DNA from: Candidatus Thorarchaeota archaeon
Lineage (GTDB): Archaea > Asgardarchaeota > Heimdallarchaeia > Hodarchaeales > Hodarchaeaceae
Direction: 5' to 3'
DNA length: 32,000 nt
Assembly: GCA_048882505.1 (NCBI GenBank)
Contig: JBHLRO010000025.1
Location: 1 to 32,000, forward strand
Shown here: in pieces, positions 13,084 through 30,660 of the stretch
Layout of the letters: each line of letters opens with the position of its first letter
Position numbering within the stretch: position 1 is the first letter of the stretch
Notes under the pieces: generated by a model
Databases searched by the model: none
What the model saw: only the letters and a program-made list of their open reading frames with translations
What the model was told of the DNA's origin: nothing
Program-made: the position numbers and the translations under genes

Positions 13084-13103
13084 TTGACAGATCTCCTAGT
13101 TAA

Positions 13104-17089: not shown

Positions 17090-17336
17090 CCCTTAATCAA
17101 TGAGGTGCTAGAATGAGAATTCTTACGTTTTATGTCTCTCCATTTTAAATTGGGCCAATGAAATCCATTATTATTAATTTCCTCTACCAAAAGGAACCCA
17201 AACCGTGACACGAAATCCGCTTAAAGGGCGTTAAAATGTATCTTCATTAAGTAAAGCACCTCAAACTTTAAAAATTAAAGTTATGGCGCTTAACCGTACA
17301 CAATCAGTAAATTCTTTTCTAAAGGTTGGTTGTTTA

Positions 17337-18530
17337 ATGGTTAGCTTTTCTCTTTCCGAGGAACATAAATTATTGCAAGAAAGTGTGAAAGATTTCGTGG
17401 AACGTGAGGTCGTTCCAAAGGTATCCGACTACGATAAACAACAAAAATCGTTATACCCAGAAATCCTCCCCAAAATGGGAGAGCTCGGTCTATTGGGAAT
17501 CTGTATCCCAGAAGCATATGGAGGAGCAGGAATGGATTATTTAGCCCTTGCCTTGGCCTGTGAAGAGCTGGAACGGGTCGATACAGCTTTACGAGTCGTA
17601 ATGTCTGTTCATGTGGCGTTAAACAGCTGTACGCTATACCAATGGGGTACTGAGGACCAAAAGAAAAAATATTTGGTTCCGCAGGCCCAAGGTAAGAAAT
17701 ACGGGATTTATGGCCTTACTGAATCATGTTGTGGATCAGATCCAGCATCCATGCAAACTCATGCTGTAAAGGAAGGAGACGGATATGTTCTTAACGGATC
17801 TAAGAGCTGGATTTCATTGGTAGACGTCGCTGACAACTTCCTGATATTTGCACGTATGGGTCAAGAAAAAGGACACAAAGCCATTGCTGCCTTCATCGTA
17901 GAAAGAGATTTCGGTGGAGTAGAAACGAGAAGTTTTAAGGATAAACTGGGCATACGAACTGGTGACACCGGGGAAATTTTCCTCCAAGATGTCCCCGTCC
18001 CAGCTGAAAATCTCCTTGGTGAGGAGAGTGAAGGTTTTAAGATCGCAATGACCGCTCTGGATAATGGGCGTTTCACTGTGGCTGCAGGTGCCTGTGGAAC
18101 AATCCGTGCCTGCTTAGAGGCCTCCACAGCTTATTGTCACGAACGAAAAGCATTCGGTCAAGAGATAGGTAGGTTCCAATTGATTCAGGAACACATCGCT
18201 GAGATGCAAGCTGGATACGATCAATCTCAACTTTTGGTGTATAAGGCTGCTTGGTTAAAGAATCAAGGAATTCGTAATACTCGTGAAACTGCGATGGCAA
18301 AGTGGCAGGCTACCAACTATGCGTGTGACGCGGCTGACCGTGCGATACAGATCCATGGGGCAAATGGTTATTCAAGTGACTTTTCTGTCGGGCGTTATTG
18401 GCGGAACGCGAGAGCAAATACCATCTTAGAAGGAACCAACGAAGTGCAGAAGTTGATCCAGGGATCTTACGTACTTGGCTATCGTAGAAAGGCCAAATTA
18501 CGTCACGAAATGCCTGCATACCAACCATAA
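17337..18530 (+). CDS. Acyl-CoA dehydrogenase, glutaryl-CoA dehydrogenase (non-decarboxylating)-like (track start 17283)
   Basis: GELGLLG.CIPE.YGG, GLTE..GSD, LNGSKSWIS, KLG, R.AFG..I..FQ, IHGANGY, ILEGTNE (catalytic Glu). The ALRV motif is shared with non-decarboxylating glutaryl-CoA dehydrogenase. Confidence 0.88.
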   Translation: MVSFSLSEEHKLLQESVKDFVEREVVPKVSDYDKQQKSLYPEILPKMGELGLLGICIPEAYGGAGMDYLALALACEELERVDTALRVVMSVHVALNSCTLYQWGTEDQKKKYLVPQAQGKKYGIYGLTESCCGSDPASMQTHAVKEGDGYVLNGSKSWISLVDVADNFLIFARMGQEKGHKAIAAFIVERDFGGVETRSFKDKLGIRTGDTGEIFLQDVPVPAENLLGEESEGFKIAMTALDNGRFTVAAGACGTIRACLEASTAYCHERKAFGQEIGRFQLIQEHIAEMQAGYDQSQLLVYKAAWLKNQGIRNTRETAMAKWQATNYACDAADRAIQIHGANGYSSDFSVGRYWRNARANTILEGTNEVQKLIQGSYVLGYRRKAKLRHEMPAYQP

Positions 18531-18645
18531 AACGACAGAGGTCTATTTTTCGTCCTCTTAGTCTTTTTCTGAAATTTGATTTTTTCTTAAATAGCAGTGG
18601 TATTCTTATGTACTATCATAATATTTTGCTCCATTGTGGTGAGAC

Positions 18646-19605
18646 ATGGCCGAAAGCTCATTGGAGTGGGTATTTCCAGTAATTGCTACCGTGATATGGC
18701 TTCTATTCTTTGGAAGCGTGGTTGAACAATATCTTCGAAAGCGAAAAACCCATCAGCTTGTCTGGGGGATCGCTCTATTGATGGTGGTCGTGGTAATGGG
18801 AGCAGAGGCCTTGAGCTATTTTCTAGGCGAATGGAATCCATGGCTTTATCGAATCTATTATGTTCTAGCAGCTTTTCAGGTAACTATCCTAGGTACTGGA
18901 GTTATCTACTTATTACGCAGTAGAGAATTAATTAATGAGCAGAACACCTTCGGAGGACTTCTCATATTCGGAGGGATCTGGCTAGTATTCGGGATCCCGT
19001 TCACCTTCTTTGTCTCCCCCGTTTTCTTTGTTATAATTCTATTAGCTTTTCTATATATAGGATTGGCTTTGATCTCTTTCTTCACGGAATGGAATACCAG
19101 TGGAACCCAGTTTGCGCATCTCTTCGCGTTGACTAATGTAGTTGTTTTCGGTGTTATGATGGTGAGCGCTTGGAGTTCACCCGTGGACGTGGAAATCCTG
19201 AAATCCCTACTCGGACATCAAATAGGGGGAGCTGGTTGGGAAGAATCAACTATTGTTCGGAGTTTTTCTCCCCTTCTAACAGTACCCGGAGCCTTTGCAC
19301 TTATAGGAGGAGCCCTCTTTTCATATTTTAAGTTGCAACGTTATCTTAAATACAAAACAGGCCATTATAATCCCAAAACTGGAGTTTTCAACCTTTTCTT
19401 GGCGGGCGGATCGCTACTACTAGCAACAAGCGGGGTGTTATTACGATTTGGACTTGCAGGCACGCTACTGCTATATACTGTAAACACCCTAGCAGTAATC
19501 CTGATGTATTTTGGATTTCTTGAGTCAGATAGCATCTCTATGCACAAATTGATAGAGGTGTTAACGTTCCAGTGGCTCCGTAGTTCCGAAACTCAGATTT
19601 CCTGA
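18646..19605 (+). CDS. Uncharacterised polytopic membrane protein (about 8-9 TM)
   Basis: Repeated hydrophobic segments; HQLVWGIAL, W..WLYRIYY, LGTGVIYLL, RSFSPLL. No soluble output domain. Confidence 0.8.
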   Translation: MAESSLEWVFPVIATVIWLLFFGSVVEQYLRKRKTHQLVWGIALLMVVVVMGAEALSYFLGEWNPWLYRIYYVLAAFQVTILGTGVIYLLRSRELINEQNTFGGLLIFGGIWLVFGIPFTFFVSPVFFVIILLAFLYIGLALISFFTEWNTSGTQFAHLFALTNVVVFGVMMVSAWSSPVDVEILKSLLGHQIGGAGWEESTIVRSFSPLLTVPGAFALIGGALFSYFKLQRYLKYKTGHYNPKTGVFNLFLAGGSLLLATSGVLLRFGLAGTLLLYTVNTLAVILMYFGFLESDSISMHKLIEVLTFQWLRSSETQIS

Positions 19606-19630
19606 TTGATTTAAAGAAAAGGAAAAGGGA

Positions 19631-20851
19631 TTACGCTGCGTTCAGGGCTTGGTCAAGGTCTGAAATGAGATCATCCACATTCTCAATACCGACGGATAAC
19701 CGAATAAGGCCATCTGTGATTCCAGCTCTTTCTCTTTGAGTTCGTGGAACCATAGAATGGGTCATTGTGGCTGGATGCTCCACCAAAGTTTCAACCCCTC
19801 CTAATGAAACTGCAAGAGAACAGACACGTAAAGATTCTACAACAGTTCGACCTTTTACGATCCCGCCTTTGACTTCAAATGAAAGCATCCCCCCATAGCC
19901 TCCAACCATCTGTTGAGTTGCCAGTTCGTAGTCTGGATGGGATCTTAACCCAGGATAGAAAACCCGGGCAATCTTTGGGTGGTGTTCCAGGAATTGGGCA
20001 ATTCTCATTGCGTTTTCATTATGGCGCCTGATGCGAACCTCTAATGTCTTGATGCCACGGATTAATAAAAACGCGTCAAACGGAGACAAATTTCCTCCGA
20101 GCAGTTTCAATGAATGATAACACCTCTCGAAAAGGGATTTTGAATTAACCGAAATTGTCCCTGCCAGAATATCCGCATGTCCACCTAGATATTTGGTGGC
20201 CGAATGGACCACAATGTCCATTCCCAATTTAATCGGCTGCTGATTAACTGGTGAGGCAAAAGTGCTATCTACTACTGAGATAGAACCTGTATCCCTTGCG
20301 ATGCGAGCTACCTGTTCAAGATTGGTAAGTTTCATAGTTGGGTTCGCCGGGGTTTCTGCATAAATGACTCTCGTATTCTCCTGAATGGCATCTTTGTATT
20401 CTTTGGTATCTCTACCCTGAATGAATGTTGTTTCAAAACCCATTCGTTTCCCTATGGTAGTAAGAAATTCGTGAGTTCCTCCATAGAGCGAATAGGGGAC
20501 GATAATATGATCACCAGCTTCAAGTAGCGAAACAAAGACAGTTGAGATCGCGGCCATACCTGAGGATGTGATCAACGTTCCATAAGCATATTCCAGGGAA
20601 TTCATGATTCGGGCTGCGATATCAGTTGTCGGATTTCCCCAGCGAGAATAAAACCAGCCTGATCCATCATAGATGCGTTCTCGTGAAAGGTGTGCTCCAT
20701 GGTCAACGGAATCCAAGAGAAAAGTTGATGAAGCAATAATTGGGGGTGTGACCGAGTTGATTGGGCCTCTGATAGGGTAACGTTTGACAACGGTTGTCCC
20801 CAAACCTTCATTAGACCTATCGTTTGTACTTGAACTATCTTTCATCACCAA
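19631..20851 (-). CDS. Cys/Met-metabolism PLP enzyme (methionine gamma-lyase/cystathionine gamma-synthase family)
   Basis: YSRWGNPT, SSGMAAI, LYGGT, ETPANP, VDSTFASP, HSATKYLGGHAD (PLP Lys), AVSLGGVETL, RLSVGIE. Confidence 0.93.
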   Translation of the reverse strand: MVMKDSSSTNDRSNEGLGTTVVKRYPIRGPINSVTPPIIASSTFLLDSVDHGAHLSRERIYDGSGWFYSRWGNPTTDIAARIMNSLEYAYGTLITSSGMAAISTVFVSLLEAGDHIIVPYSLYGGTHEFLTTIGKRMGFETTFIQGRDTKEYKDAIQENTRVIYAETPANPTMKLTNLEQVARIARDTGSISVVDSTFASPVNQQPIKLGMDIVVHSATKYLGGHADILAGTISVNSKSLFERCYHSLKLLGGNLSPFDAFLLIRGIKTLEVRIRRHNENAMRIAQFLEHHPKIARVFYPGLRSHPDYELATQQMVGGYGGMLSFEVKGGIVKGRTVVESLRVCSLAVSLGGVETLVEHPATMTHSMVPRTQRERAGITDGLIRLSVGIENVDDLISDLDQALNAA

Positions 20852-21119
20852 AACCTCACGTGATTGATTCTTAGAACTGATTCAAGATTGAATCGTTTCG
20901 AACCAAATAAAGGAGTCAATTTTCTTACACACCTTGTAAAGGCCCTTCCTCTGGCCAAAAATACTTTGTTAAATCCTAAACCGAATCTTTCCACCTCATT
21001 CTCCCTGAGCTTCAAAAAGATTGTGAGAGCTGCGCGTGTCTGCAGTTTGTGGTAAAAGCCCTCTAATTATGAAAATTCTCTTTGATAAACGAACATTCAC
21101 GAGGCATTAGTTTGCCAGG

Positions 21120-22343
21120 TTACATTCGTAATCCGCCGTCTACTTGAACAACTGATCCAGTCATATAATCTGAGTCTGAGGATGCAAGGAAAACTGCAAT
21201 TTTGGCGACATCATTTGGATATCCAATGCGCATTTGGGGAATCTGAGCGATTGTTTGTTCTTTGTAAACGCTGGGAGTGTTCGCTGTCATGGTTGTTTCA
21301 ATATAGCCCGGCATAATGCAGTTAACATTAACTTTATAACGGGCTAACTCTCGTGCCGCCGTTTTTGATAGAGCAATAATGCCCCATTTAGATGCTGCAT
21401 ACGCAGCCTGTCCGACATTTCCGTATTTAGCGGCGGTGGATGTGAAATTGATAATTTTTCCTCCAAGCGGCCTTTTTGCCATGAAATGAGGTGAGATTGC
21501 TCGGATACAATTGAAAGTGCCCTTTAGATTTATGTCCACAACTGTATTCCACAATTCGTCGGTCATTTTACTGATCAAGGCACTTCGACTGATGCCCGCA
21601 TTATTTACAAGGATATCTATCTGGTTGAAAGTTTCCAAAGCTATCTTGATCAGTCGGGCAACGCTATCCACATCGGATACATCACATTGAACCGGAAGGC
21701 CTTGAGAGCTTAGGTTTTGAATCTCTTCGACCAGGGAATCAAGATCAGACTTAGTTCGTGCAGCGCAAACAACTTTCGCTCCCTCCCGCGCATATTCTAA
21801 TGCAATTTCGCGGCCTATTCCTTTTCCTGCACCAGTGATAATCGCAATTTTGCCATCTAACCGCTGACGCGATTTTACTGAATCCTCATCTTTTTTTTTC
21901 TCTTTTTCTTCCGCTGCAGTTAGTATAATATCGCCACGTAACAGCTTGTAGACTACACGATCGCCTTCGATGACTTCCGCTTCAACTTTCACCTTCTCTC
22001 CAATCTTGAGATTTTCAGAGTTAGAAGCTCCACTCCATGTCACTAGCCTACCCCCTTCTTTTAGTTTAACCACGACGTTCGTATAAGGTGCAAAGCGTTC
22101 AAATCCAGCAGGTGGGACATATACCTCCGAAAAACTCAAAATTTCACCTTCTCCCGACAACTCGATATGTTCCATGAATTCGTTGGTTAGACATTTTGCT
22201 GTACAGTAAGCTCTTGGGGGGTAATAGAGAGTTCCACACTTTTTACACTTGGTTCCTTCCAGCACATTTTGCCGTAACTTACTGATGAATCTATCGCCAA
22301 TCTTTGACTGAGAAACATAGTCACGATATCCAAAGGACTTCAT
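21120..22343 (-). CDS. Fusion: DUF35 Zn-ribbon/OB-fold (thiolase partner) plus FabG-like SDR
   Basis: aa 1-135: CKKC...YYPPRAYCTAKC and OB strands. Charged linker AEEKEKKKDED. aa 161-407: TGAGKGIG, NNAG, GQAAYAASK, VDGG. Confidence 0.9.
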   Translation of the reverse strand: MKSFGYRDYVSQSKIGDRFISKLRQNVLEGTKCKKCGTLYYPPRAYCTAKCLTNEFMEHIELSGEGEILSFSEVYVPPAGFERFAPYTNVVVKLKEGGRLVTWSGASNSENLKIGEKVKVEAEVIEGDRVVYKLLRGDIILTAAEEKEKKKDEDSVKSRQRLDGKIAIITGAGKGIGREIALEYAREGAKVVCAARTKSDLDSLVEEIQNLSSQGLPVQCDVSDVDSVARLIKIALETFNQIDILVNNAGISRSALISKMTDELWNTVVDINLKGTFNCIRAISPHFMAKRPLGGKIINFTSTAAKYGNVGQAAYAASKWGIIALSKTAARELARYKVNVNCIMPGYIETTMTANTPSVYKEQTIAQIPQMRIGYPNDVAKIAVFLASSDSDYMTGSVVQVDGGLRM

Positions 22344-22352
22344 GTCTCATCA

Positions 22353-23504
22353 TCACCGGGAGAAGACGTGAACAACACAGTATTGGCCATGCCCACCAAC
22401 ATTATGTGTTAGGCCGATCTCAGCCCCATCAACTTGGCTTTTTCCGGCCTCACCTCGTAATTGTTTAACCACACCCACCACTTGGGATGCACCTGTTGCG
22501 CCTACAGGATGGCCTTTGGCCTTTAAGCCTCCGTCGACATTTATTGGGATTTTACCCCCGATATAAGTTTCTCCTTCTTCGATGAATCTTCCACCTTCTC
22601 CTCTTTCTGTAAATCCGAGATCCTCATACGCCATAATTTCAGCTATAGTAAAGCAGTCGTGGACGGCTGCAACATCAATTTTTTTAGGCTCCATCTTGGA
22701 TTGGAGATATGCCTGCCGGGACGCTTCCACCGCACTACTTAAATTGCTTAATTCGGGGCGAGTAAGCAAACTAAAAGGAGCAGTGGCTGCTCCAAGTCCT
22801 TCGATCCAGACAGGCGTATCAGAGAGATGTTTTGCTTTCTCTTCATTGACAACTACCAATGCAGCAGCCCCGTCAGCATTGGCGCAACAGTCAAACAGAC
22901 GCAGGGGCGATGCAATCATTCGAGATTCCAGCGCCTTTTCAATAGTAATTTCCTTCTGGAACATCGCCATCTTATTCATAGCTCCATAGTGGTGATTTTT
23001 TACCGCGACAGCCGCCATCTGTTCTGAAGTAGTACCGAATTTAGACATGTGTGCATTTGCGTACATGGCGTAATAGTTGGCAAAAGTAGTACCAAAAGGA
23101 GCCTCCCACTGAACATCACCAGTTCTTCCCATTATTTTAAGAATCTCTGAAGTGGGATTTTCCAGCATTTTCTGAACACCTAGAACCAAAACGATGTCAT
23201 GCATGTTTGCTTTGATGAGAGCATATGCAGACCTTAATGCTGCAGCAGAGCTGCTACAAGCGGCTTCCGTGAGCCATACAGGCTGGGGATTTAATCCTAA
23301 ATACTCAGTAATGGGTCCTGCGATACTTCTTTGGGTCATGTAGACCGGACTTGCTCCTATGATGGTTGCGTCAATGTCTTTTTGCGTAATATTTGCATCC
23401 AAAAGGGCTTCAGCAAAAGGTTCGAAAGCCAACTCTTGAACTGAAACATCATCACGTCGGCCAAACCGACTATTTCCAATTCCAATTATTCCAACTTTGG
23501 TCAA
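22353..23504 (-). CDS. Archaeal-type thiolase (acetyl-CoA C-acyltransferase)
   Basis: EAACSSS (catalytic Cys), DGAAA, VHDCFTIAE, GGLKAKGHPVGATG, HNVGG. Stop is 9 nt from the DUF35 gene. Confidence 0.93.
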   Translation of the reverse strand: MTKVGIIGIGNSRFGRRDDVSVQELAFEPFAEALLDANITQKDIDATIIGASPVYMTQRSIAGPITEYLGLNPQPVWLTEAACSSSAAALRSAYALIKANMHDIVLVLGVQKMLENPTSEILKIMGRTGDVQWEAPFGTTFANYYAMYANAHMSKFGTTSEQMAAVAVKNHHYGAMNKMAMFQKEITIEKALESRMIASPLRLFDCCANADGAAALVVVNEEKAKHLSDTPVWIEGLGAATAPFSLLTRPELSNLSSAVEASRQAYLQSKMEPKKIDVAAVHDCFTIAEIMAYEDLGFTERGEGGRFIEEGETYIGGKIPINVDGGLKAKGHPVGATGASQVVGVVKQLRGEAGKSQVDGAEIGLTHNVGGHGQYCVVHVFSR

Positions 23505-23533
23505 TGATTTAGGCTCCAGAAATGTTTAGATTG

Positions 23534-24580
23534 TCATTTTTGGCATAGCACAATTGTTCGAACTCCTTCACCTCTTCTCATGACATCAAACGCTTCATTG
23601 ATTTCCGAAAGAGGGTACTTTCCAGTAACAAGTGGTTTAACCACAATTCTTTTATTTTGAACCAATTTAATAATGCGAGGATAGTCAACCGTGCGACATC
23701 CCAATGATCCCATGATTTCCATTTCACGAAACATGACTCTTCCTATATCAAAGCCATCCCATCTTTTATGTGAATACCCTACTGCAACCAATCGTCCTCC
23801 AGTCCTTAAGCTGTTGAAGGCCTGTTTCATGGTCACAGGGTTGCCAATGCACTCAAAAGCAACATCTGCACCTCCACCAGTAATCTTGCGAATTGCTCCA
23901 ACGATTGCACGGTCATCCAGATCGGCCGCTGATAAAATCTCAACTGCCCCAAGTTGTTTTGCGATTTCCAGTTTTTTTGGAATGATGTCCACTGCAATTG
24001 CCAATCCGCCAGCCACCTTAATGTTTTGAACCGTGTTTAGGCCTATTCCCCCACATCCGATGACAACAGCCCAGTCTCCTGGGCGGATCTGTCCACGATT
24101 CTTTACCGCATGATATGGAGTGGAAACAGCATCTGATATGATGCAACCCTCTTCTAATGGGATTTCGCCAGGTAAGGCGAAAATATCTTTGGCTGGGACC
24201 ATAATCTTTTCAGCAAATCCCCCATCCACATTGGAACCAAAAAACGTTTGATTCGTACAAATGTTCTCACGACCAGTCCTACAGTAAAAGCAATTCCCAC
24301 ACGAAATAACCGCAGGAACAAGCACGTGATCTCCTTGTTTAAAAGCGGTGACATCTTCGCTAGTTTCACGAACAATTCCTGACATTTCATGTCCCAAAAC
24401 CAACGGAGGGGATTTACCTGTCGGAACGCCATGATCTAGAAATCCAATATCAGTGTGACAAACCCCACAAGCCGTTATGTCAATGATTGCTTTTCCTGAA
24501 GAGTCACCGAGGTCCGGCGATGGATAGCTTCCATTCAATTTCAAAGGAGCCTTTACCTGTTCAAATATAGCTGCACGCAT
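23534..24580 (-). CDS. had: Zn-dependent dehydrogenase, 6-hydroxycyclohex-1-ene-1-carbonyl-CoA dehydrogenase-like (track start 24601)
   Basis: MDR motifs CGVCHTD, LGHE, CGNCFYC...C, GCGGIG. The GVPTGKSPPLVLGHE, PAVISCG and GSLGC...YP segments match remembered Had/BamQ-type sequences. Confidence 0.72.
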   Translation of the reverse strand: MRAAIFEQVKAPLKLNGSYPSPDLGDSSGKAIIDITACGVCHTDIGFLDHGVPTGKSPPLVLGHEMSGIVRETSEDVTAFKQGDHVLVPAVISCGNCFYCRTGRENICTNQTFFGSNVDGGFAEKIMVPAKDIFALPGEIPLEEGCIISDAVSTPYHAVKNRGQIRPGDWAVVIGCGGIGLNTVQNIKVAGGLAIAVDIIPKKLEIAKQLGAVEILSAADLDDRAIVGAIRKITGGGADVAFECIGNPVTMKQAFNSLRTGGRLVAVGYSHKRWDGFDIGRVMFREMEIMGSLGCRTVDYPRIIKLVQNKRIVVKPLVTGKYPLSEINEAFDVMRRGEGVRTIVLCQK

Positions 24581-24702
24581 CGGAACCACTTGTTGAAACA
24601 AGAAAATCCTGCTGATTTTTAATTGTTCCTGCTAATCTGGTTACATAATAAGTACAGGATTTTACTGAGATGGTTTACTCCCGTTTACTCTTCATGCGGC
24701 GT

Positions 24703-25374
24703 TTAGAGAAAGACCCCAATTTCGGATAACGATTTTTTCTCTATATTTGGAACCATCGCATCTTCATGGGGATATCCTACTGGCATAAGGACATATGGTT
24801 TTTCATTGGGAGGTCGATTGAGCAGTGTTTTTAGAACTTTTATGGGTGCCGGAGTATGAGTGACCGTGACCAGGCCTACATTATGGATCGCCATAATAAG
24901 CATCCCTATAGCAATTCCGACGCTTTCCTTGACATAGTAATGCGGGAGTTTTTGCATATTTTCACCAAATGCATAATCTTGGCGAAAAACTACTATTAGG
25001 TAAGGAGCCTCTGTTAAATAAGGTTTTTCCCAATTAGTGGCTAGAGGGGCTAGGGCTTCTCGTTGTGCATCCGAAATACGGGACTCGTAGAATTCCTTTT
25101 CTACTGCTTCTACCGCTACTCGAATTCGGGATTTTATTGAAAGATCGTTAACTACGACGAAGGTCCATGGCTGTTTATTGGCCCCCGAGGGAGCAGTACC
25201 CGCGGTCTTGACAATAGTTTCGATTATTTTTCGGGGTACTGGCTTGGTTGAAAATTTCCTAACAGTTCTCCGCGTTCGAGCCCATTCGTAGAATTCTGTG
25301 GAGCGAAAATCCATTTCATCGGAAGAATAAGTTTTGGGTCTGTATGGGACGAATTCTTTGCTCATTGTAACCAA
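24703..25374 (-). CDS. Iodotyrosine deiodinase-like flavoprotein (nitroreductase superfamily)
   Basis: RRTVRKF, TAPSGANKQPW, lid E-K-E-F-Y (Glu/Tyr pair), NWEKPYL (Lys), ESVGIA, THTP, RP.NE....PVGYP. Confidence 0.85.
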   Translation of the reverse strand: MVTMSKEFVPYRPKTYSSDEMDFRSTEFYEWARTRRTVRKFSTKPVPRKIIETIVKTAGTAPSGANKQPWTFVVVNDLSIKSRIRVAVEAVEKEFYESRISDAQREALAPLATNWEKPYLTEAPYLIVVFRQDYAFGENMQKLPHYYVKESVGIAIGMLIMAIHNVGLVTVTHTPAPIKVLKTLLNRPPNEKPYVLMPVGYPHEDAMVPNIEKKSLSEIGVFL

Positions 25375-25600
25375 CTACTTCGTGGTGCCCTTTGGCCAAG
25401 AAAATGGTTTTTGGACACCGCTGATAATACCGATAGTACACACAACTGATAATATCTTTATAATCCTTGAGATGCTCGCAGCAATGAAATAAACTTTTTA
25501 GATCAATGGAATACACGTATACGGGACCTTATCATTCATTAATTTCCAAAGCACATTTCAATTAACATTAAATATTACTACCTCAAAATGGCAATTACAT

Positions 25601-26332
25601 ATGTTGTTGGACACGCTGAGCTTCAGAATCGTAAAAGGGGTCGTTTGGACCAAATTTGATGAAGAAATGGGCCCTGTTCCTGTGGCCTGGGTACCTGATA
25701 CCCTTTCTGAAGAAATTTTGTTTAGCGTCTCTCTCCGTGGAATGTCTGTCTTCTCAAGTCGTCCTTCCAACATATCGTATGCAAAAATGATTGCTACACT
25801 TCCTTTTCCAGAATATGAGTTCTTTTCTATCTCTACAGTCCTTTATGAAGTCTCAGAGTCTCTCAGGGGCGGATTTGATATAAATCTGGTGACGGTTTTA
25901 ATCCCCCAACTGATAGTGGAAAATGCATGGCTGGATATACGTCAAATTCAAGGGATTTTTAGGAAGTATTTTGCTCCCTGGGATGGCAGACCAGTTAACG
26001 ATAAAGAAAAAATCATCACAGGGGTTGCTTTGGCCATTGATGACATTTTGTGTCGTAAATTCGAGATGATCGAAGAGGGAGAAAAGGTTAGAGATCAGCT
26101 AAACAATTATCTTGAGTCCTACCTTGTAACCTCCCGTGAAGAAAACGATCAACAGCTTATCAAGACACGAGTAAAAACATTGATTCAATCGTTGGACCGA
26201 GTACTAATAGCGGGGGATCATGAACGAATTCAAGAGGCCCTAGACCAACTGAACTATATCTTGAATGAGGGATTTGAGGATGAACTAATCATTGCTTACC
26301 AGGGTGCCTTTAGCCACTTTTTACAAATATAA
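25601..26332 (+). CDS. uDENN/longin-like domain protein with helical C-terminus (Asgard type)
   Basis: First strand VVWTKFDEEMGP (FD..xGP motif), LPFPE, LRGG followed by a hydrophobic strand, then a predicted helical region. Confidence 0.65.
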   Translation: MLLDTLSFRIVKGVVWTKFDEEMGPVPVAWVPDTLSEEILFSVSLRGMSVFSSRPSNISYAKMIATLPFPEYEFFSISTVLYEVSESLRGGFDINLVTVLIPQLIVENAWLDIRQIQGIFRKYFAPWDGRPVNDKEKIITGVALAIDDILCRKFEMIEEGEKVRDQLNNYLESYLVTSREENDQQLIKTRVKTLIQSLDRVLIAGDHERIQEALDQLNYILNEGFEDELIIAYQGAFSHFLQI

Positions 26333-26366
26333 ACCACGAATTAGGTTTCGTCAATCCAATCCATGA

Positions 26367-27137
26367 TTAACGATTCTGCCAAACTGGAGATCTTTTTTCA
26401 ACAAAGGCCTGTAACCCCTCATTAGCATCCTTGGTTTCCATTAGCTCATGCAGGTATAAGTGTTCGATCCGACTCAGAATGTGCATGAATTCAACATGAG
26501 TTCCTATTTGGAGCGCTTTCTTCGCATATCGTAAAACGACCGCACTTAAGGACCTAAATCTCTGTAAATAGTTTTCAAAATCCTGATCGAAGGTGGTAGA
26601 GGGAAATACGTGATTTATCAATCCATATTTTAGCGCTTCTTGCGCATTCATTGATTCACCATGCATCACAAGTTCGTAGGCCATTTTCAGTGGTACCAGG
26701 TGCGGTAATAGAACCGTTGCCAGTGGGGGAAAGACACCCACTTTGATTTCTGGCTGTCCGAACTTGGCATTTTCAGAAGCAATCACAAAATCACAAAATA
26801 AGGCAACCTCACACCCCCCTCCCAGAGCTGCCCCCTTAACACTAGCTATCGTGGGACAGGGCAAAGAATAAAATTGTCTGAAGATTTTGTGGAATTCTTC
26901 GAGCATGGTCTTGGCTGTATCTCCCATATGCTCTCCTACATCTACTCCTGCGGAGAATGTCCGCCCTGTGTGTCCAACGACCAGGGCCTTCAACGAATTG
27001 TCCTTGGAAAATTCCTCAATCGCCCGATTGATCTCAACCATCATCGCAATGTTAAGAATGTTAAGTTTTCCACTGTTTAATATGATTTTGCCAACGTTAT
27101 CATTTTTAATTACCTGAATCTGTTCGTAGTTCATCAC
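26367..27137 (-). CDS. dch: Cyclohexa-1,5-dienecarbonyl-CoA hydratase-like enoyl-CoA hydratase
   Basis: LNILNIAMM, FSAGVDVGEH, EFHKIFR, ALGGGCE, FGQPEIKVGVFPP, IEHLYLHELMETKDANEGL..F.EKR.P.W match remembered Dch/BamR sequences. SD GAAGGTGA upstream. Confidence 0.8.
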   Translation of the reverse strand: MMNYEQIQVIKNDNVGKIILNSGKLNILNIAMMVEINRAIEEFSKDNSLKALVVGHTGRTFSAGVDVGEHMGDTAKTMLEEFHKIFRQFYSLPCPTIASVKGAALGGGCEVALFCDFVIASENAKFGQPEIKVGVFPPLATVLLPHLVPLKMAYELVMHGESMNAQEALKYGLINHVFPSTTFDQDFENYLQRFRSLSAVVLRYAKKALQIGTHVEFMHILSRIEHLYLHELMETKDANEGLQAFVEKRSPVWQNR

Positions 27138-27493: not shown

Positions 27494-28708
27494 TTATTCA
27501 ATCAAAGGAAAATGGCACGCTACCCAATGATTTGAACGCTGCTCTATGAGTTCTGGTTCATTTTCAATGCATTTTGAAGGATCCACGATAGGACAACGAG
27601 GATGGAATCTGCAACCTGACGGAGGATTAATTGCATCTGGTACCTCCCCATGCGGCAAATCATATTTCTTTTCTCCAGGAATAGGTGTCGGAACTGCATC
27701 TATTAGGGCTCTCGTATACGGGTGGAGCGGATTTCTGAATATGGCCTCGACCTCTCCCATTTCAACGAGTTTTCCAACATACATTACCCCTATTCGGTCA
27801 CCAAAATGCCTTGCTGTGGCCAGATCATGGGTTATAAAGAGAATTGAAAGATTATGTGCTAATTGGAGTGATTTCAATGAGTCTAGAATACCTGCGCGTA
27901 AACTGACATCCAACATACTTGTAGGTTCATCAGCGATTATTAGCTCTGGATTCAATATTAATGCTCTCGCTATGGAGGCTCGCTGCAGTTCACCGCCGCT
28001 AACTTCATGGGGAAATTTCGTATAATATTGTTGGGAAGGAGTTAAACCGATTTCTTCAAACACCTCCAGGATGCCTGAATCAGCAATTTTTCTTCTACGA
28101 AACCAAGAATGATAGAAGTAGCTTCCCAAGGCGACAGTGAAAAGGGACACTCCAAAAAGAGCACTAAGGGTAACTATTGTCGAATCCTGAATAAAAAACA
28201 CAAGCGTGAGAGCCAAAAGTGAAATTATACTACTTAAAATAAGAAAAAACTCCGAGTATACGGAGTTACGATATCTCTTTCTGACCTCGGTGTCCGTAAT
28301 CCTATTGTGAATTAATAAGGGATGAAGAACTGCATCCCCCAAACGCATACGTGGATTTAATGAGGAAAAAGGATTTTGAAAGACGACTTGAGATTTTATA
28401 TTTCCTTTACGGGGTATTAACTCATTGTGTGTAATTTCATTGTTCTTCCACTTGAATTTTCCTGTTGTGGGAGTCTCTAAACCAACCAATATATTAGCAG
28501 TAGTCGTCTTTCCACATCCAGACTCACCAACCAAGCAGAAAATCTCTCCTTTATTGATTGAAAACGTGATATCATCAACAGCTTTCACATATGTCTCTTG
28601 TCGAGTGAACAGTCTATCTAGAGTTCCATGCTCAACTGGAAAGTATTTTCTAAGGTTAGTTACTTCTATTAAAGTCTCCTTTTCTTTCTTATCAATAAGA
28701 CCTGACAT
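27494..28708 (-). CDS. oppF: Oligopeptide ABC transporter ATPase (OppF/DppF) with inserted two-TM hairpin (track start 28750)
   Basis: GESGCGKTT, VFQNP, SGGELQR, IIADEPTSMLD, ITHDL, HPYT, C-terminal GCRFHPRCP...C...P...ACH. Hydrophobic insert at about 28085-28285. Confidence 0.92.
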   Translation of the reverse strand: MSGLIDKKEKETLIEVTNLRKYFPVEHGTLDRLFTRQETYVKAVDDITFSINKGEIFCLVGESGCGKTTTANILVGLETPTTGKFKWKNNEITHNELIPRKGNIKSQVVFQNPFSSLNPRMRLGDAVLHPLLIHNRITDTEVRKRYRNSVYSEFFLILSSIISLLALTLVFFIQDSTIVTLSALFGVSLFTVALGSYFYHSWFRRRKIADSGILEVFEEIGLTPSQQYYTKFPHEVSGGELQRASIARALILNPELIIADEPTSMLDVSLRAGILDSLKSLQLAHNLSILFITHDLATARHFGDRIGVMYVGKLVEMGEVEAIFRNPLHPYTRALIDAVPTPIPGEKKYDLPHGEVPDAINPPSGCRFHPRCPIVDPSKCIENEPELIEQRSNHWVACHFPLIE

Positions 28709-28721
28709 TGTCACTCCCTCA

Positions 28722-29720
28722 CTATCTAAAATGGGATTCATAGGATTCATGAAACATCAGACATTTGGCAATATGTTGACTCTTTGACCCTATCATTATT
28801 AGCTCTGGGCTTTCTTTTCTGCAGACATCTTTTACAAAAGTGCACCGATCGGCAAAGGAACATCCTTTCGGGGGATTTCTTAGATCGGGAGGATGCCCGG
28901 GAATAAAACTAAGCTGCTTCTTTTCTTTCTCTTTGACATTGGGAATCGCCTTGATCAAGGCCTGTGTGTAAGGATGAGCTGGGCTTTCAAAGATAGTAAA
29001 GGTATCGCCTACCTCAACTATTTGACCGGCATACATTATGGCAACTCGATTTGTGATTTCCGCTACTACCCCCAAATCATGTGTAATGTAAATAACTGTC
29101 AATTTGTACTCTCTAATGATATCTTTTAGTAGCTGAAGGAGTCTTGCCTGAACCAAAACATCAAGTGCTGTGGTAGGTTCATCAGCAATAATCATTTTTG
29201 GATTCAAAATCAAGGTTAACGCTATTACAATTCGTTGTTGCATTCCGCCCGAAAATTGAAAGGGATTGTCTTTCAAGCGTGTGGGAGGGATTTCCAAACG
29301 GTGTAACAAAGATTTCACTTCTTCCCATTTTTCCTCAGTCCACAGCTCGTGTACTTTCAGAGTATCGATAAAATGATCTGAAACCTTCTGAAGAGGATTC
29401 AGGGCATTCTGAGAAGCCTGAAACACCATAGATATATCAGAACCACGAAGTTTTTCCATTTCCTCCTCGGATAGCTGTACCAGATCTTTCTTATTATATA
29501 GAATTCTCCCTGAACGAATAACCCCGCCCTGAAGTAGGCCAAGGATTGAATAGCCCAGTGTGCTTTTTCCACATCCAGATTCTCCCACCAGGCCTAAAAC
29601 TTCTCCTTTGTCAATGGTGAGAGAGACATTATCTACCGCTCTCACATTTCCGTCAAGTGTGGGATATTCAACGACCAGGTTCTGGATTTCCAATAACGGA
29701 GGTTTATCGCTATTTCGCAT
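28722..29720 (-). CDS. oppD: Oligopeptide ABC transporter ATPase (OppD/DppD) (track start 29768)
   Basis: GESGCGKST, VFQASQNALNP, FSGGMQQR, IIADEPTTALD, ITHDL, GCSFADRC. Confidence 0.93.
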   Translation of the reverse strand: MRNSDKPPLLEIQNLVVEYPTLDGNVRAVDNVSLTIDKGEVLGLVGESGCGKSTLGYSILGLLQGGVIRSGRILYNKKDLVQLSEEEMEKLRGSDISMVFQASQNALNPLQKVSDHFIDTLKVHELWTEEKWEEVKSLLHRLEIPPTRLKDNPFQFSGGMQQRIVIALTLILNPKMIIADEPTTALDVLVQARLLQLLKDIIREYKLTVIYITHDLGVVAEITNRVAIMYAGQIVEVGDTFTIFESPAHPYTQALIKAIPNVKEKEKKQLSFIPGHPPDLRNPPKGCSFADRCTFVKDVCRKESPELIMIGSKSQHIAKCLMFHESYESHFR

Positions 29721-30660
29721 TATTTCGTCTACTGATGAGGGGATTGAACTTATCATTGAGTGCATCACCTATAAGTGAAAAAGCAAAGGAGAGAACAAAT
29801 ATCATTAGCCCAGGGAAGAAAATCAGCCAAGGATAGGTGCGAACCCTTGAAAGAGATCTGTTTTCATATACATCATAACCCCAATCAGCTGTTGGAGGTT
29901 GTATACCGAGTCCTAGGAATGCTAAACCAGCATTTGTAAGAATTGCATCAGTCATATTGAAGGGAATGATCGCAATGGTAGAGGCCAAAATATTGGGAGT
30001 GATATATCTCAGCAAAATGGTTAACCTACCTGCTCCCATAGTTTTCGCAGCGTCAACGTAACCTTCTTTTTTTATTTGTAAAACTTGAGCCCGAACCACC
30101 CGAAAATACGTCGGAATGTAAACGACCGCAGTTGCAAAAGATACAGCGGCAACTGTTTTTAAGATACCGAAAGCAGCAAGGTAAATAGCGAAAACTATGG
30201 CAAATAATAAGGAAGGAAAAGAATAGATCGCATCTGCTATTAGAGTCAGTAGACGGTCCATTTTTCCCCCAAAGTATCCCGAAAGGACACCCAAAGGTAT
30301 CCCAAATATATATGCCAGAATAGTTCCTGAAAACGCCATTAATAACGCTATTCTGGCCCCGTATATTACCCGTGCGAGTACATCGTAACCCAAGAGATTA
30401 GTTCCAAAAGGATGTTCTAAAGAAGGGGGGGCAAAACGTAAACTTGGAAACCGTTCATCGTAGGAATAAGGGGAAATGACATCTGCAAATAAGGCCATAA
30501 CCAAAATCATAACAAAGAGAAATATCCCCAAAGTTAACGTTTTATTATATTTTATAGATCTAATAAGGCCGATAAACGAGGATTTAACCGATAGACCTTG
30601 TTTTTTCGGTGTTAAAGGGGGAGTGACCAATTTTGTTTCACCAAAAAGATTTTCGATCAA
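29710..30660 (-). CDS. oppC: Oligopeptide ABC transporter permease (OppC/DppC)
   Basis: APPSLEHPFGTNLLG.D, IYGAR, EAA loop EGYVDAAKTMGA, LAFLGLG, PGL, GDAL. TTG start overlaps the oppB TGA. Confidence 0.93.
   Translation of the reverse strand: MIENLFGETKLVTPPLTPKKQGLSVKSSFIGLIRSIKYNKTLTLGIFLFVMILVMALFADVISPYSYDERFPSLRFAPPSLEHPFGTNLLGYDVLARVIYGARIALLMAFSGTILAYIFGIPLGVLSGYFGGKMDRLLTLIADAIYSFPSLLFAIVFAIYLAAFGILKTVAAVSFATAVVYIPTYFRVVRAQVLQIKKEGYVDAAKTMGAGRLTILLRYITPNILASTIAIIPFNMTDAILTNAGLAFLGLGIQPPTADWGYDVYENRSLSRVRTYPWLIFFPGLMIFVLSFAFSLIGDALNDKFNPLISRRNNAK

What the first reader, a model, noticed from the sequence alone, without database searches (positions are those of the whole stretch)
17337..27137. 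Dispersed anaerobic benzoyl-CoA lower pathway in a probable Asgard archaeon
Seen within 10 kb: dch-like, had-like, thiolase, DUF35-SDR and glutaryl-CoA dehydrogenase-like genes; had, thiolase and DUF35-SDR are tightly spaced (29 and 9 nt). Established: the route is benzoyl-CoA reductase, Dch, Had, Oah, then beta-oxidation of 3-hydroxypimeloyl-CoA to glutaryl-CoA; aromatic degradation potential has been proposed for some Asgard lineages. Not seen: benzoyl-CoA reductase and the ring-opening hydrolase Oah. Inference: this organism degrades aromatic rings anaerobically, with an archaeal thiolase/DUF35 module replacing the bacterial beta-oxidation genes.
Basis: partly seen in the sequence, partly recalled or inferred. 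Interest (0 to 1): 0.7.

Follow-up and report, generated by a model that had tools for sequence, protein, structure and literature searches.

The report
Benzoyl-CoA ring-degradation genes in Hodarchaeales
This Asgard (Hodarchaeales) archaeon carries the genes that break down the ring of benzoate-like compounds without oxygen; the genes are real and conserved across its genus, but similar predictions already exist for other Asgard groups and no activity has been tested.

Summary
In detail: all the listed genes and the 29-nt and 9-nt gaps are present.

The main interpretation holds.
- **Oah:** a real ring-opening hydrolase (570 bits, cutoff 464) lies on contig C4.
- **Reductase:** the window's own contig ends, 8 kb past the window, inside a Bcr/Mbd-type bcrC–bcrB operon. 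The same-genus genome G016 continues it with the rest of bcrB and two ATPase genes.

In other Hodarchaeota MAGs, orthologues of the window's genes form one block: dch–had-like–thiolase–DUF35-SDR–(ACAD)–oah–thiolase. Across 22 genus genomes, Dch-like, Had-like and Oah co-occur, and 15 carry a class I reductase: 13 Bzd-type (over cutoff) and 2 Bcr-type (this genome and G016).

- The SDR/thiolase/DUF35 module is not an archaeal replacement. The same trio sits beside Oah in Deltaproteobacteria, Firmicutes and Thermoplasmata; only the DUF35–SDR fusion is specific to Hodarchaeales.
- The "Had" is a distinct subfamily (223 bits, cutoff 339).
- The "glutaryl-CoA dehydrogenase" label is unproven.

Asgard benzoyl-CoA pathways were already predicted in 2021, so this is a new member of a known kind. 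The earlier scan notes on this genome's other pieces agree.

The parts
26367..27137 (-). [quoted passage not shown]
   Evidence: The best NCBIfam model is TIGR03189 at 186 bits, below the 292.5 cutoff. All five Oah-linked crotonases scored for calibration also stay below it, at 157-180 bits. It belongs to a 99%-supported clade of 46 Oah-linked crotonases and groups with the Hodarchaeota orthologues (99) on a longer branch. It is 55-61% identical to the genus orthologues, which lie next to hadL.
23534..24601 (-). HadL: zinc-dependent MDR dehydrogenase, candidate 6-hydroxycyclohex-1-ene-1-carbonyl-CoA dehydrogenase of a non-canonical subfamily (the likely start is the ATG at 24580)
   Evidence: TIGR03201 is the top model at 223 bits, below the 338.65 cutoff. 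Canonical Oah-adjacent Had proteins score 433-485 and other HadL members 266-273. The zinc motifs are present, as is the segment DAVxTPYxAV shared with solved Had 7QUY. The HadL clade is supported at 95. The gene lies next to dch/thiolase/oah in Hodarchaeota, directly next to BcrCBAD in G026 and G030, and inside Oah-Dch-Bcr clusters of Bacteroidota and Ignavibacteria, with an Oah-Dch-HadL locus in Gemmatimonadota.
22353..23504 (-). Archaeal/SCP-x-type thiolase, candidate 3-oxopimelyl-CoA thiolase
   Evidence: NCBIfam PRK06064 scores 490 bits, above its 420 cutoff. The gene starts 29 nt after hadL. It is 80-87% identical to the Hodarchaeales orthologues and 50-68% to the thiolases beside Oah in Thermoplasmata, Deltaproteobacteria and Firmicutes.
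21120..22343 (-). DUF35 (zinc ribbon + OB fold) fused to an SDR, candidate 3-hydroxypimelyl-CoA dehydrogenase tethered to the thiolase
   Evidence: Pfam finds zf-ChsH2, OB_ChsH2_C and adh_short in one ORF. It starts 9 nt after the thiolase. The two parts are fused in all Hodarchaeales loci of this genus that I looked at, are separate adjacent genes in G022, and are separate genes flanking the thiolase in 20 other Oah loci.
17283..18530 (+). Acyl-CoA dehydrogenase of the cluster; substrate not settled (glutaryl-CoA or a short-chain or alicyclic acyl-CoA)
   Evidence: All three ACAD domains are present. The best NCBIfam model is Acd at 356 bits, below its 470 cutoff. In the PDB the order is 4L1F (Bcd-type) 313, 5OL2 287, 3MPI (non-decarboxylating glutaryl-CoA dehydrogenase) 282. 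The 75% identical orthologue lies between DUF35-SDR and oah in L038 and L042.
24703..25374 (-). Iodotyrosine-deiodinase-type flavoprotein between dchL and hadL (context only; not part of the cluster in other lineages)
   Evidence: It scores 234 bits to PDB 5KO7 and 187-196 to mammalian IYD. It is conserved at this place in G016 and absent from the Oah loci of other lineages.

Best explanation
The window holds most of the Hodarchaeales version of the anaerobic benzoyl-CoA degradation pathway. In this species the pathway is split over three contigs; in relatives it is one cluster.

Proposed route:
1. An ATP-dependent class I reductase of the Bcr/Mbd type (bcrC and the start of bcrB at the end of this contig) reduces benzoyl-CoA, or a substituted benzoyl-CoA, to the cyclic dienoyl-CoA.
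2. DchL hydrates it.
3. HadL, a zinc- and probably NAD-dependent dehydrogenase of a subfamily distinct from canonical Had, oxidises the 6-hydroxy product.
4. Oah (on contig C4) opens the ring to 3-hydroxypimelyl-CoA.
5. The SDR half of the DUF35-SDR fusion oxidises that to 3-oxopimelyl-CoA.
6. The neighbouring thiolase, docked through the DUF35 half, cleaves it to glutaryl-CoA and acetyl-CoA.
7. The ACAD, a second thiolase (C4) and a 3-hydroxybutyryl-CoA dehydrogenase (C41) finish the oxidation.

Shown here: the gene identities, the synteny, the co-occurrence and the family placements. Inferred: every substrate, the direction of flux, the complex between the thiolase and DUF35-SDR, and the presence of the missing reductase subunits in this genome.
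For: (1) Oah scores above the equivalog cutoff at C4:15288-16367 (570 bits against 464), followed by a thiolase.
(2) In Hodarchaeota loci L036, L038 and L042, orthologues of the window's genes (55-82% identical) form the block dchL-hadL-thiolase-DUF35SDR-(ACAD)-oah-thiolase2. Hbd and an acyl-CoA ligase follow in L036 and L042, and these map to C41 here.
(3) Contig C25 ends with GNAT, a BcrC-like gene (TIGR02263 246 bits; PDB MbdN 238 bits against 114 for the dehydratase beta subunit) and 143 residues of BcrB. G016 has the same MTase-GNAT-BcrC context (84-91% identical). Its BcrB is 98% identical over those 143 residues and scores 312 bits on TIGR02260 against 167 for the dehydratase model. Two distinct ATPase genes follow.
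(4) Across 22 genomes of the genus, Oah is found in 15, HadL in 16, DchL in 16 and a class I reductase in 15 (13 with BzdO over cutoff, 2 Bcr-type). Thirteen genomes hold both a reductase and Oah, and four hold none of the five genes.
(5) DchL lies in a 99%-supported clade of Oah-linked crotonases. HadL carries the zinc-ADH motifs and a Had-like active-site segment, and it lies on the Had side of a split (85) that excludes the 41 nearest generic MDR representatives sampled.
(6) The SDR-thiolase-DUF35 trio lies beside Oah in 23 of 80 Oah loci from three unrelated lineages.
(7) In Geobacter metallireducens a thiolase and SDR pair, an AOR and 4Fe-4S pair and a GNAT are induced on benzoate (PMC1924859), which parallels the accessory genes here.
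Against: No enzyme of this lineage has been assayed, and no RNA data were available.

In this assembly the reductase is incomplete: most of BcrB and all of BcrA and BcrD are missing and are inferred from G016.

All Bcr-type subunits, DchL, HadL and the ACAD score below the NCBIfam equivalog cutoffs.

The specific sister relation of HadL to canonical Had is weak (37). Against solved structures, HadL is as close to a Bacillus alcohol dehydrogenase (176 bits) as to Had (173 bits).

No canonical benzoate-CoA ligase is present (best 221 bits against 375).

The ACAD is closest to butyryl-CoA dehydrogenases.

I could not place experimentally characterised Dch and Had proteins (Thauera, Geobacter, Syntrophus, Ferroglobus) in the trees. 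The reference clades are defined by position next to Oah, which is partly circular.
Confidence: 0.75

Rival explanations
1. The same enzymes serve alicyclic rather than aromatic substrates, or run in reverse. One version is oxidation of cyclohexane- or cyclohexene-carboxylate entering at the dienoyl-CoA level through an ACAD. The other is a Syntrophus-like reductive route from crotonyl-CoA and acetyl-CoA to cyclohexane carboxylate as an electron sink in a fermenting, syntrophic archaeon.
For: An ACAD is part of the cluster, and it gives moderate matches to the cyclohexanecarboxyl-CoA and cyclohexene-carbonyl-CoA dehydrogenase models (249 and 229 bits). No canonical benzoate-CoA ligase is present. 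The window is embedded in peptide and amino-acid metabolism genes: an Opp/Dpp transporter, a Met-gamma-lyase-like enzyme and an AOR. From my own knowledge, the pathway is reversible in Syntrophus aciditrophicus.
Against: A class I reductase accompanies the lower pathway in 13 of the 15 genus genomes that have Oah, often on the same contig. That is hard to explain if aromatic rings were never involved. The ACAD matches those two alicyclic models less well than it matches Acd (356 bits) or AcrC (339 bits).
Confidence: 0.1
2. The window's genes are a general beta-oxidation or reverse beta-oxidation set (crotonase, MDR reductase, thiolase, DUF35, ketoacyl reductase, ACAD) for fatty acids or amino-acid-derived acyl-CoAs. 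This would be the ACP-independent archaeal fatty-acid module that I recall from the literature, and their link to ring cleavage would be incidental.
For: Every gene belongs to a broad family, and none reaches a pathway-specific cutoff. In this genome they are not adjacent to Oah. The solved structures closest to DchL are generic crotonases, and one of HadL's two best solved matches is an ordinary alcohol dehydrogenase.
Against: Orthologues are fused into one co-directional block with Oah in relatives. They co-occur with Oah and with benzoyl-CoA reductases across the genus. Homologues sit beside Oah in many unrelated bacteria. DchL is only about 31% identical to the genome's other crotonases and separates from them at 99% support. 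HadL keeps the zinc ligands of an alcohol-type dehydrogenase; from my own knowledge, MDR enoyl reductases lack them.
Confidence: 0.08
3. The contig is a misbinned bacterial fragment, so nothing follows for Asgard archaea.
For: The genome is a MAG of 83 contigs with an estimated 3.7% contamination. Oah and Bcr genes have close bacterial relatives at 65-74% for Oah.
Against: The nearest relatives of every cluster gene are in Hodarchaeota/Heimdallarchaeota MAGs from several studies, including the closed chromosome CP070695, which is G009 of the same genus. G016 reproduces both window-contig regions at 88-98% identity.
Confidence: 0.02

Closest known systems
Benzoyl-CoA pathway of Thauera aromatica and Azoarcus (BcrCBAD or BzdNOPQ, Dch, Had, Oah), and the predicted Asgard version in Hermodarchaeota (Zhang et al. 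2021, PMC8163825)
   Same: The logic and the enzyme families are the same: an ATP-dependent class I reductase of the HgdAB/activase superfamily, a crotonase-type hydratase, a zinc MDR dehydrogenase and a crotonase-type ring hydrolase, followed by beta-oxidation. Oah is a full member by the curated cutoff. The C-then-B gene order is the one I recall for Thauera.
   Different: The dehydrogenase belongs to a separate subfamily (HadL). The Bcr subunits are distant, at 246 and 312 bits against cutoffs of 421 and 487. The genes are split over three contigs in this species. The lineage is Hodarchaeales, for which I found no published description of the pathway.
3-Methylbenzoyl-CoA reductase MbdONQP of Azoarcus sp. 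CIB (PDB 9G87)
   Same: It is the best solved match of the BcrC-like subunit (238 bits, full length). Both are Bcr-type rather than Bzd-type.
   Different: MbdN was the only Bcr-type hit returned from the PDB copy, so the match does not show a preference for methylated substrates.
Archaeal thiolase/HMG-CoA synthase/DUF35 complex (PDB 6ESQ) and the BbsAB benzoylsuccinyl-CoA thiolase
   Same: A DUF35 zinc-ribbon and OB-fold protein is paired with an SCP-x/archaeal-type thiolase. The fusion of DUF35 to the enzyme of the neighbouring reaction suggests the same scaffolding and channelling idea.
   Different: The partner here is an SDR dehydrogenase rather than HMG-CoA synthase. The proposed direction is degradative. 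The complex was not tested here.
Obligate-anaerobe benzoate clusters (Desulfobacterales, Peptococcaceae; benzoate-induced genes of Geobacter metallireducens, PMC1924859)
   Same: SDR, thiolase and DUF35 lie beside oah/bamA. A thiolase and SDR pair, an AOR and 4Fe-4S pair and a GNAT are among the benzoate-induced genes in Geobacter.
   Different: From my own knowledge, many of those bacteria use the tungsten class II reductase BamB-I. The AOR here is not a BamB orthologue (375 bits to Pyrococcus AOR against 273 to BamB).

Membership tests
Oah/BamA (TIGR03200) | Whole-protein score above the curated equivalog cutoff of 464.45 bits | tested here: met
   570 bits at C4:15288-16367. This is outside the window but in the same genome.
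Dch (TIGR03189) | Score above the curated cutoff of 292.5 bits | tested here: not met
   The window scores 186 bits. The cutoff is uninformative here, because all five Oah-linked crotonases scored from bacteria, Thermoplasmata and Hodarchaeota stay at 157-180 bits.
Dch (functional group defined by linkage to Oah) | Membership in the clade of crotonases encoded beside oah, had or bcr | tested here: met
   The clade of 46 sequences has 99% SH-aLRT support and is separate from the four own-genome paralogues. No characterised member could be included.
Had (TIGR03201) | Score above the curated cutoff of 338.65 bits | tested here: not met
   The window scores 223 bits, other HadL members 266-273, and canonical Oah-adjacent Had proteins 433-485.
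Had (TIGR03201) | Zinc-ADH catalytic and structural zinc ligands and a Had-like active-site segment | tested here: met
   The motifs CGVCHTD, GHE and C-x2-C-x2-C-x7-C are present. The segment DAVSTPYHAV matches DAVTTPYQAV in 7QUY, where Bacillus ADH has CAGVTTYKAL.
Had (TIGR03201) | Specific phylogenetic relation to canonical Had | tested here: inconclusive
   HadL and Had fall on the same side of a split (85) that excludes 41 generic MDR representatives, but the HadL plus Had node has only 37% support. FastTree gave 86.
Class I benzoyl-CoA reductase, Bcr type (TIGR02259-02263) | Four subunits: two HgdAB-like core subunits and two different ATPase subunits in one operon | tested here: inconclusive
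   This genome has BcrC and 143 residues of BcrB, and then the contig ends. G016 has all four subunits in the same context. The scores are below the equivalog cutoffs but clearly above those of the dehydratase models.
Class II benzoyl-CoA reductase (BamB) | An AOR-family subunit orthologous to BamB | tested here: not met
   The AOR at C25:34804-36723 scores 375 bits to Pyrococcus AOR and 273 to BamB 4Z3W.
Glutaryl-CoA dehydrogenase (Acd, NF045552) | Score above the cutoff of 470 bits, or clear preference over other ACADs | tested here: not met
   356 bits. In the PDB the order is Bcd-type 313 and 287, then glutaryl-CoA dehydrogenase 3MPI at 282.
Thiolase with DUF35 partner | An SCP-x/archaeal-type thiolase adjacent to a zinc-ribbon plus OB-fold DUF35 protein | tested here: met
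   PRK06064 scores 490 bits against a cutoff of 420. zf-ChsH2 and OB_ChsH2_C are both over their Pfam cutoffs, and the gap between the genes is 9 nt. Physical binding was not tested.

The most novel reading that the evidence does not exclude
In the sublineage formed by this genome and G016, the Bzd-type reductase of the genus was replaced in place, behind the same GNAT gene, by a Bcr/Mbd-type reductase. Several other changes go with the swap: the Dch is unusually diverged (55-61% identical where its neighbours are about 80%), the CCG-domain iron-sulfur oxidoreductase that sits upstream of dch in the Bzd-type genomes examined is lost, and an iodotyrosine-deiodinase-type dehalogenase lies next to had. 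Together these would mark a shift of substrate range towards substituted (methylated or halogenated) benzoates. That would be a natural example of a module swap re-targeting an aromatic pathway in the archaeal order proposed to be closest to eukaryotes.
Probability: 0.2. Interest if true: 0.6.

Novelty: new member of a known kind. Interest (0 to 1): 0.45.

Why it matters
Hodarchaeales have been proposed as the archaeal order closest to eukaryotes (Eme et al. 2023, as cited in PMC13053709), and their physiology is known from only two slow-growing peptide-using isolates (PMC13053709; bioRxiv 10.1101/2025.02.26.640444, which does not mention aromatics).

A complete benzoyl-CoA pathway that is conserved across a genus would add a concrete, testable substrate class (benzoate and its relatives) for enrichment, stable-isotope probing and ecological interpretation of these archaea in sediments.

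For the aromatic-degradation field, three points follow:
- The widely used Dch and Had HMM cutoffs miss the enzymes of many strict anaerobes.
- There is a Bcr-linked Had-like subfamily shared by Asgard archaea, Bacteroidota and Ignavibacteria.
- The SDR-thiolase-DUF35 trio looks like the usual partner of Oah for the step from 3-hydroxypimelyl-CoA to glutaryl-CoA.

Tried and rejected
- **AOR plus 4Fe-4S protein as a BamBC-type class II reductase:** rejected, because the AOR is closer to generic AORs.
- **HgdAB-like genes on C9 and C4 as the benzoyl-CoA reductase:** rejected, because their best models are the 2-hydroxyisocaproyl-CoA dehydratase subunits.
- **"The genus has the lower pathway without a reductase":** I held this view, where BcrC was found in only 1 of 21 relatives. 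I dropped it when G011's divergent pair proved to be BzdN and BzdO above cutoff, and BzdO was found in 13 of 21 genomes.
- **The TIGR03189 cutoff as a test of Dch identity:** uninformative.
- **Foreign replacement of the window's Dch:** rejected, because it still groups with the genus orthologues.
- **Canonical benzoate-CoA ligase:** none over cutoff.
- **Glutaconyl-CoA decarboxylase:** the genome has one carboxyltransferase, at C21:25435-26871. I did not resolve it further.
- **Expression:** no RNA holder is listed for this DNA, and I laid no reads.
- **Not run:** a predicted complex of the thiolase with DUF35-SDR (it would mostly pass by likeness to solved thiolase/DUF35 structures); structure prediction of HadL (any MDR fold would match); an AU test of the HadL plus Had clade.
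- **Not possible:** I could not put named, characterised Dch and Had sequences from Thauera, Geobacter, Syntrophus or Ferroglobus into the trees, because no tool returned them by name.

Full report
**1. The observation**

- an acyl-CoA dehydrogenase (17283-18530, +);
- a fusion of DUF35 (zinc ribbon plus OB fold) to an SDR (21120-22343, -);
- an archaeal/SCP-x-type thiolase (22353-23504, -; PRK06064 490 bits, over its cutoff);
- a zinc MDR dehydrogenase (23534-24601, -);
- a crotonase (26367-27137, -).

The gaps of 29 and 9 nt are exact. The best specific NCBIfam models are indeed Had (223 bits), Dch (186 bits) and the Desulfococcus-type glutaryl-CoA dehydrogenase (356 bits), but all three fall below their curated cutoffs.

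**2. The two missing steps exist**

A search of the whole genome finds a real Oah at C4:15288-16367 (570 bits, cutoff 464), directly followed by a second thiolase. In this genome the window's crotonase and MDR gene are by far the best Dch-like and Had-like genes (186 against 80 bits, and 223 against 97 bits).

Eight kilobases beyond the window, the same contig ends with a GNAT gene, a BcrC-like gene and a truncated BcrB-like ORF. The BcrC-like protein scores 246 bits on TIGR02263. Its best solved relative is the 3-methylbenzoyl-CoA reductase subunit MbdN (238 bits), against 114 for the 2-hydroxyacyl-CoA dehydratase beta subunit.

The same-genus genome G016 carries the same methyltransferase-GNAT-BcrC context at 84-91% identity. 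Its operon continues with a BcrB and two different ATPase subunits. That BcrB is 98% identical to the window contig's 143-residue fragment, and it scores 312 bits on TIGR02260 against 167 for the dehydratase model. From my own knowledge, two different ATPase genes in a four-gene operon mark a class I aryl-CoA reductase; dehydratases have a single activator gene.

The remainder of the operon is nowhere else in this assembly. For this genome it is therefore inferred.

**3. Synteny in relatives**

The nearest Oah relatives (76-80% identical) are in Hodarchaeota and Heimdallarchaeota MAGs. This supports the Asgard assignment.

In L036 (Ca. Hodarchaeum mangrovi), L038 and L042, orthologues of the window's genes lie in one block: dchL (55%), hadL (80%), thiolase (80%), DUF35-SDR (70%), the ACAD (75%, present in L038 and L042), then oah and thiolase2.
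- AOR and a 4Fe-4S protein lie upstream in L036 and L042. These are 68% and 48% identical to the pair at C25:34270-36723.
- A 3-hydroxybutyryl-CoA dehydrogenase and an acyl-CoA ligase lie downstream in L036 and L042. These map to contig C41 here.

So the pathway really is dispersed in this species. G016 shares the window's layout at 88% DNA identity. The genes are nonetheless parts of one conserved cluster.

**4. Distribution in the genus**

Across the 22 genomes of the genus, counting this one:

| Gene | Genomes with it |
|---|---|
| Oah | 15 |
| HadL | 16 |
| DchL | 16 |
| BzdO (over cutoff) | 13 |
| BcrC-like | 2 (this genome and G016) |

At first the reductase seemed rare, since BcrC-like was found in only one other genome. 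However, G011 carries the same GNAT (54% identical) followed by BzdN (489 bits, cutoff 454), BzdO (696 bits, cutoff 449) and two ATPases. This operon lies about 10 kb from its dch-hadL-thiolase-DUF35SDR block.

BzdO is over its cutoff in 13 of the 21 other genus genomes, and in neither of the two that carry the Bcr type. Fifteen of the 22 genomes therefore carry a class I reductase. Thirteen carry both a reductase and Oah, and four carry none of the five genes (source). The genomes are related and incomplete, so these are counts, not statistics.

**5. What the Dch-like and Had-like genes are**

*Dch.* The TIGR03189 cutoff cannot decide the question. All five Oah-linked crotonases I scored stay at 157-180 bits (Peptococcaceae, Desulfarculaceae, Thermoplasmatales, Ignavibacteriales, Hodarchaeum), which is no better than the window's 186. 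In an IQ-TREE analysis, 46 Oah-linked crotonases form one clade (99), apart from this genome's other crotonases. The window's copy groups with the Hodarchaeota orthologues (99) on a longer branch.

*Had.* Canonical Oah-adjacent Had proteins pass the TIGR03201 cutoff (433 and 485 bits). The window's protein and its relatives score 223-273 bits, so they form a distinct subfamily, which I call HadL.
- HadL keeps the zinc-ADH ligands and shares an active-site segment with solved Had.
- HadL is widespread in Asgard MAGs (70-94% identical) and in diverse bacteria (55-59%).
- It lies directly beside BcrCBAD in two genomes of another heimdallarchaeial family (G026, G030). It also lies within Oah-Dch-BcrCB clusters of Bacteroidota and Ignavibacteria, and in an Oah-Dch-HadL locus of Gemmatimonadota.
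- In trees, the HadL clade has 95% support and canonical Had 98%. All 41 sampled generic MDR representatives fall on the other side of a split (85), but a specific HadL plus Had pairing is weak (37 in IQ-TREE, 86 in FastTree).

**6. The thiolase module**

That is not right. An SDR, a homologous thiolase (50-68% identical) and a DUF35 protein lie beside Oah as three separate genes in nine Thermoplasmata-type loci and eleven bacterial loci (Desulfobacterales and other Deltaproteobacteria, Peptococcaceae, Desulfovirgula, Desulfocucumis). In G022, of the same order, they are three separate genes next to BcrCBAD.

Only the fusion of DUF35 to the SDR is particular to this Hodarchaeales genus.

From its position, the most economical role for the module is the conversion of Oah's product: the SDR takes 3-hydroxypimelyl-CoA to 3-oxopimelyl-CoA, and the thiolase cleaves that to glutaryl-CoA and acetyl-CoA. 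DUF35 would hold the two enzymes together, as it does in the solved thiolase/HMG-CoA synthase/DUF35 complex. This is inference.

**7. The ACAD, the ligase and other open points**

The ACAD belongs to the cluster, but it is as close to Bcd-type butyryl-CoA dehydrogenases (313 and 287 bits) as to the non-decarboxylating glutaryl-CoA dehydrogenase 3MPI (282 bits). No canonical benzoate-CoA ligase is present. The ligase linked to the cluster is generic. No RNA data were listed.

**8. What is known**

Zhang et al. (2021, PMC8163825) predicted Bcr, Dch, Had and Oah in Hermodarchaeota, and noted bcr genes in three Heimdallarchaeota and three Lokiarchaeota genomes. I found no paper that links Hodarchaeales to this pathway. 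The preprint on the first Hodarchaeales isolates mentions neither aromatics nor benzoate.

**9. Verdict**

This is a real and conserved, but unassayed, benzoyl-CoA pathway in a genus of Hodarchaeales. It is a new member of a known kind, with three variant features: the HadL subfamily, the DUF35-SDR fusion, and the exchange of Bzd-type for Bcr-type reductase behind the same GNAT gene.

Noticed in passing
window 24703-25374 (-): The 'nitroreductase' between dchL and hadL is an iodotyrosine-deiodinase-type flavoprotein: 234 bits to bacterial IYD 5KO7 and 187-196 to mammalian IYD. It is conserved at this place in G016 and absent from the cluster in other lineages. It could point to dehalogenation of halogenated aromatics or halotyrosine.
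   Followed up: partly
G000:C25:34270-36723 (beyond the window, same contig); L036:1340-3733; L042:189-2259; L124:7784-10148: A tungsten-type aldehyde:ferredoxin oxidoreductase with a small 4Fe-4S protein travels with the cluster in several Hodarchaeales. It is adjacent in L036 and L042, inside the Bcr cluster in G022, and within about 12 kb in G009 and G011. It is not a BamB orthologue. It might oxidise aromatic aldehydes and supply reduced ferredoxin to the reductase.
   Followed up: partly
L036:3730-5277; L042:2256-3854; L138:10900-12441; L139:10654-12189; L140:10927-12462; L141:8629-10167: A CCG-domain iron-sulfur oxidoreductase of about 511 residues (TfrB/GlpC/HdrD-like) lies upstream of dchL on the opposite strand in all six other genus loci where I could see that side (directly upstream in five; one intervening ORF in L141). 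It has no orthologue in the window's genome (best 29% identity). It may be an electron-transfer partner lost together with the reductase swap.
   Followed up: partly
G000:C4:6078-8190 (L023:1040-3794) and G016:C114 (L137:1-2220): About 7 kb upstream of oah lie a single HgdB/HadB-like core subunit, one activase and a PaaY-like gamma-carbonic-anhydrase-fold protein, with no second core subunit. The arrangement is conserved in G016. It is an unusual minimal radical-enzyme unit of unknown substrate.
   Followed up: no
G000:C9:71880-75911 (L032:5881-9912): Two tandem SDRs are followed by a HadC/HadB-like 2-hydroxyacyl-CoA dehydratase pair. This is probably amino-acid fermentation rather than a benzoyl-CoA reductase.
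   Followed up: partly
L125:2065-10628 and L126:2930-11550 (G030, G026; another heimdallarchaeial family): A compact cluster reads HadL-BcrCBAD-(MenB/BadI/Oah-like crotonase of 325 residues, equidistant from the three models)-CoA transferase-SDR. No Oah above E 1e-60 was found in these genomes. It may be a different ring-opening variant.
   Followed up: partly
L043-L050, L052, L081 (Thermoplasmata-type Oah loci): A 390-residue MDR protein sits next to Dch and Oah. It matched no NCBIfam model at E 1e-40 and forms its own long branch. It may be a third Had-like type.
   Followed up: partly
window 27494-31886 (-) and C25:32183-33838: A complete Opp/Dpp-type peptide ABC transporter (two ATPases, two permeases, and a family-5 binding protein just past the window) separates dchL from the AOR. 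This fits a peptide-using lifestyle.
   Followed up: no
window 12085-14126 (-): Two tandem ArsA/Get3-type ATPase genes of 332 and 340 residues.
   Followed up: no
G000:C41:7696-8595 (L122): A TIGR00297 (DUF92) membrane protein sits between the cluster-linked acyl-CoA ligase and hbd. This gene is not seen between them in L036 or L042.
   Followed up: no
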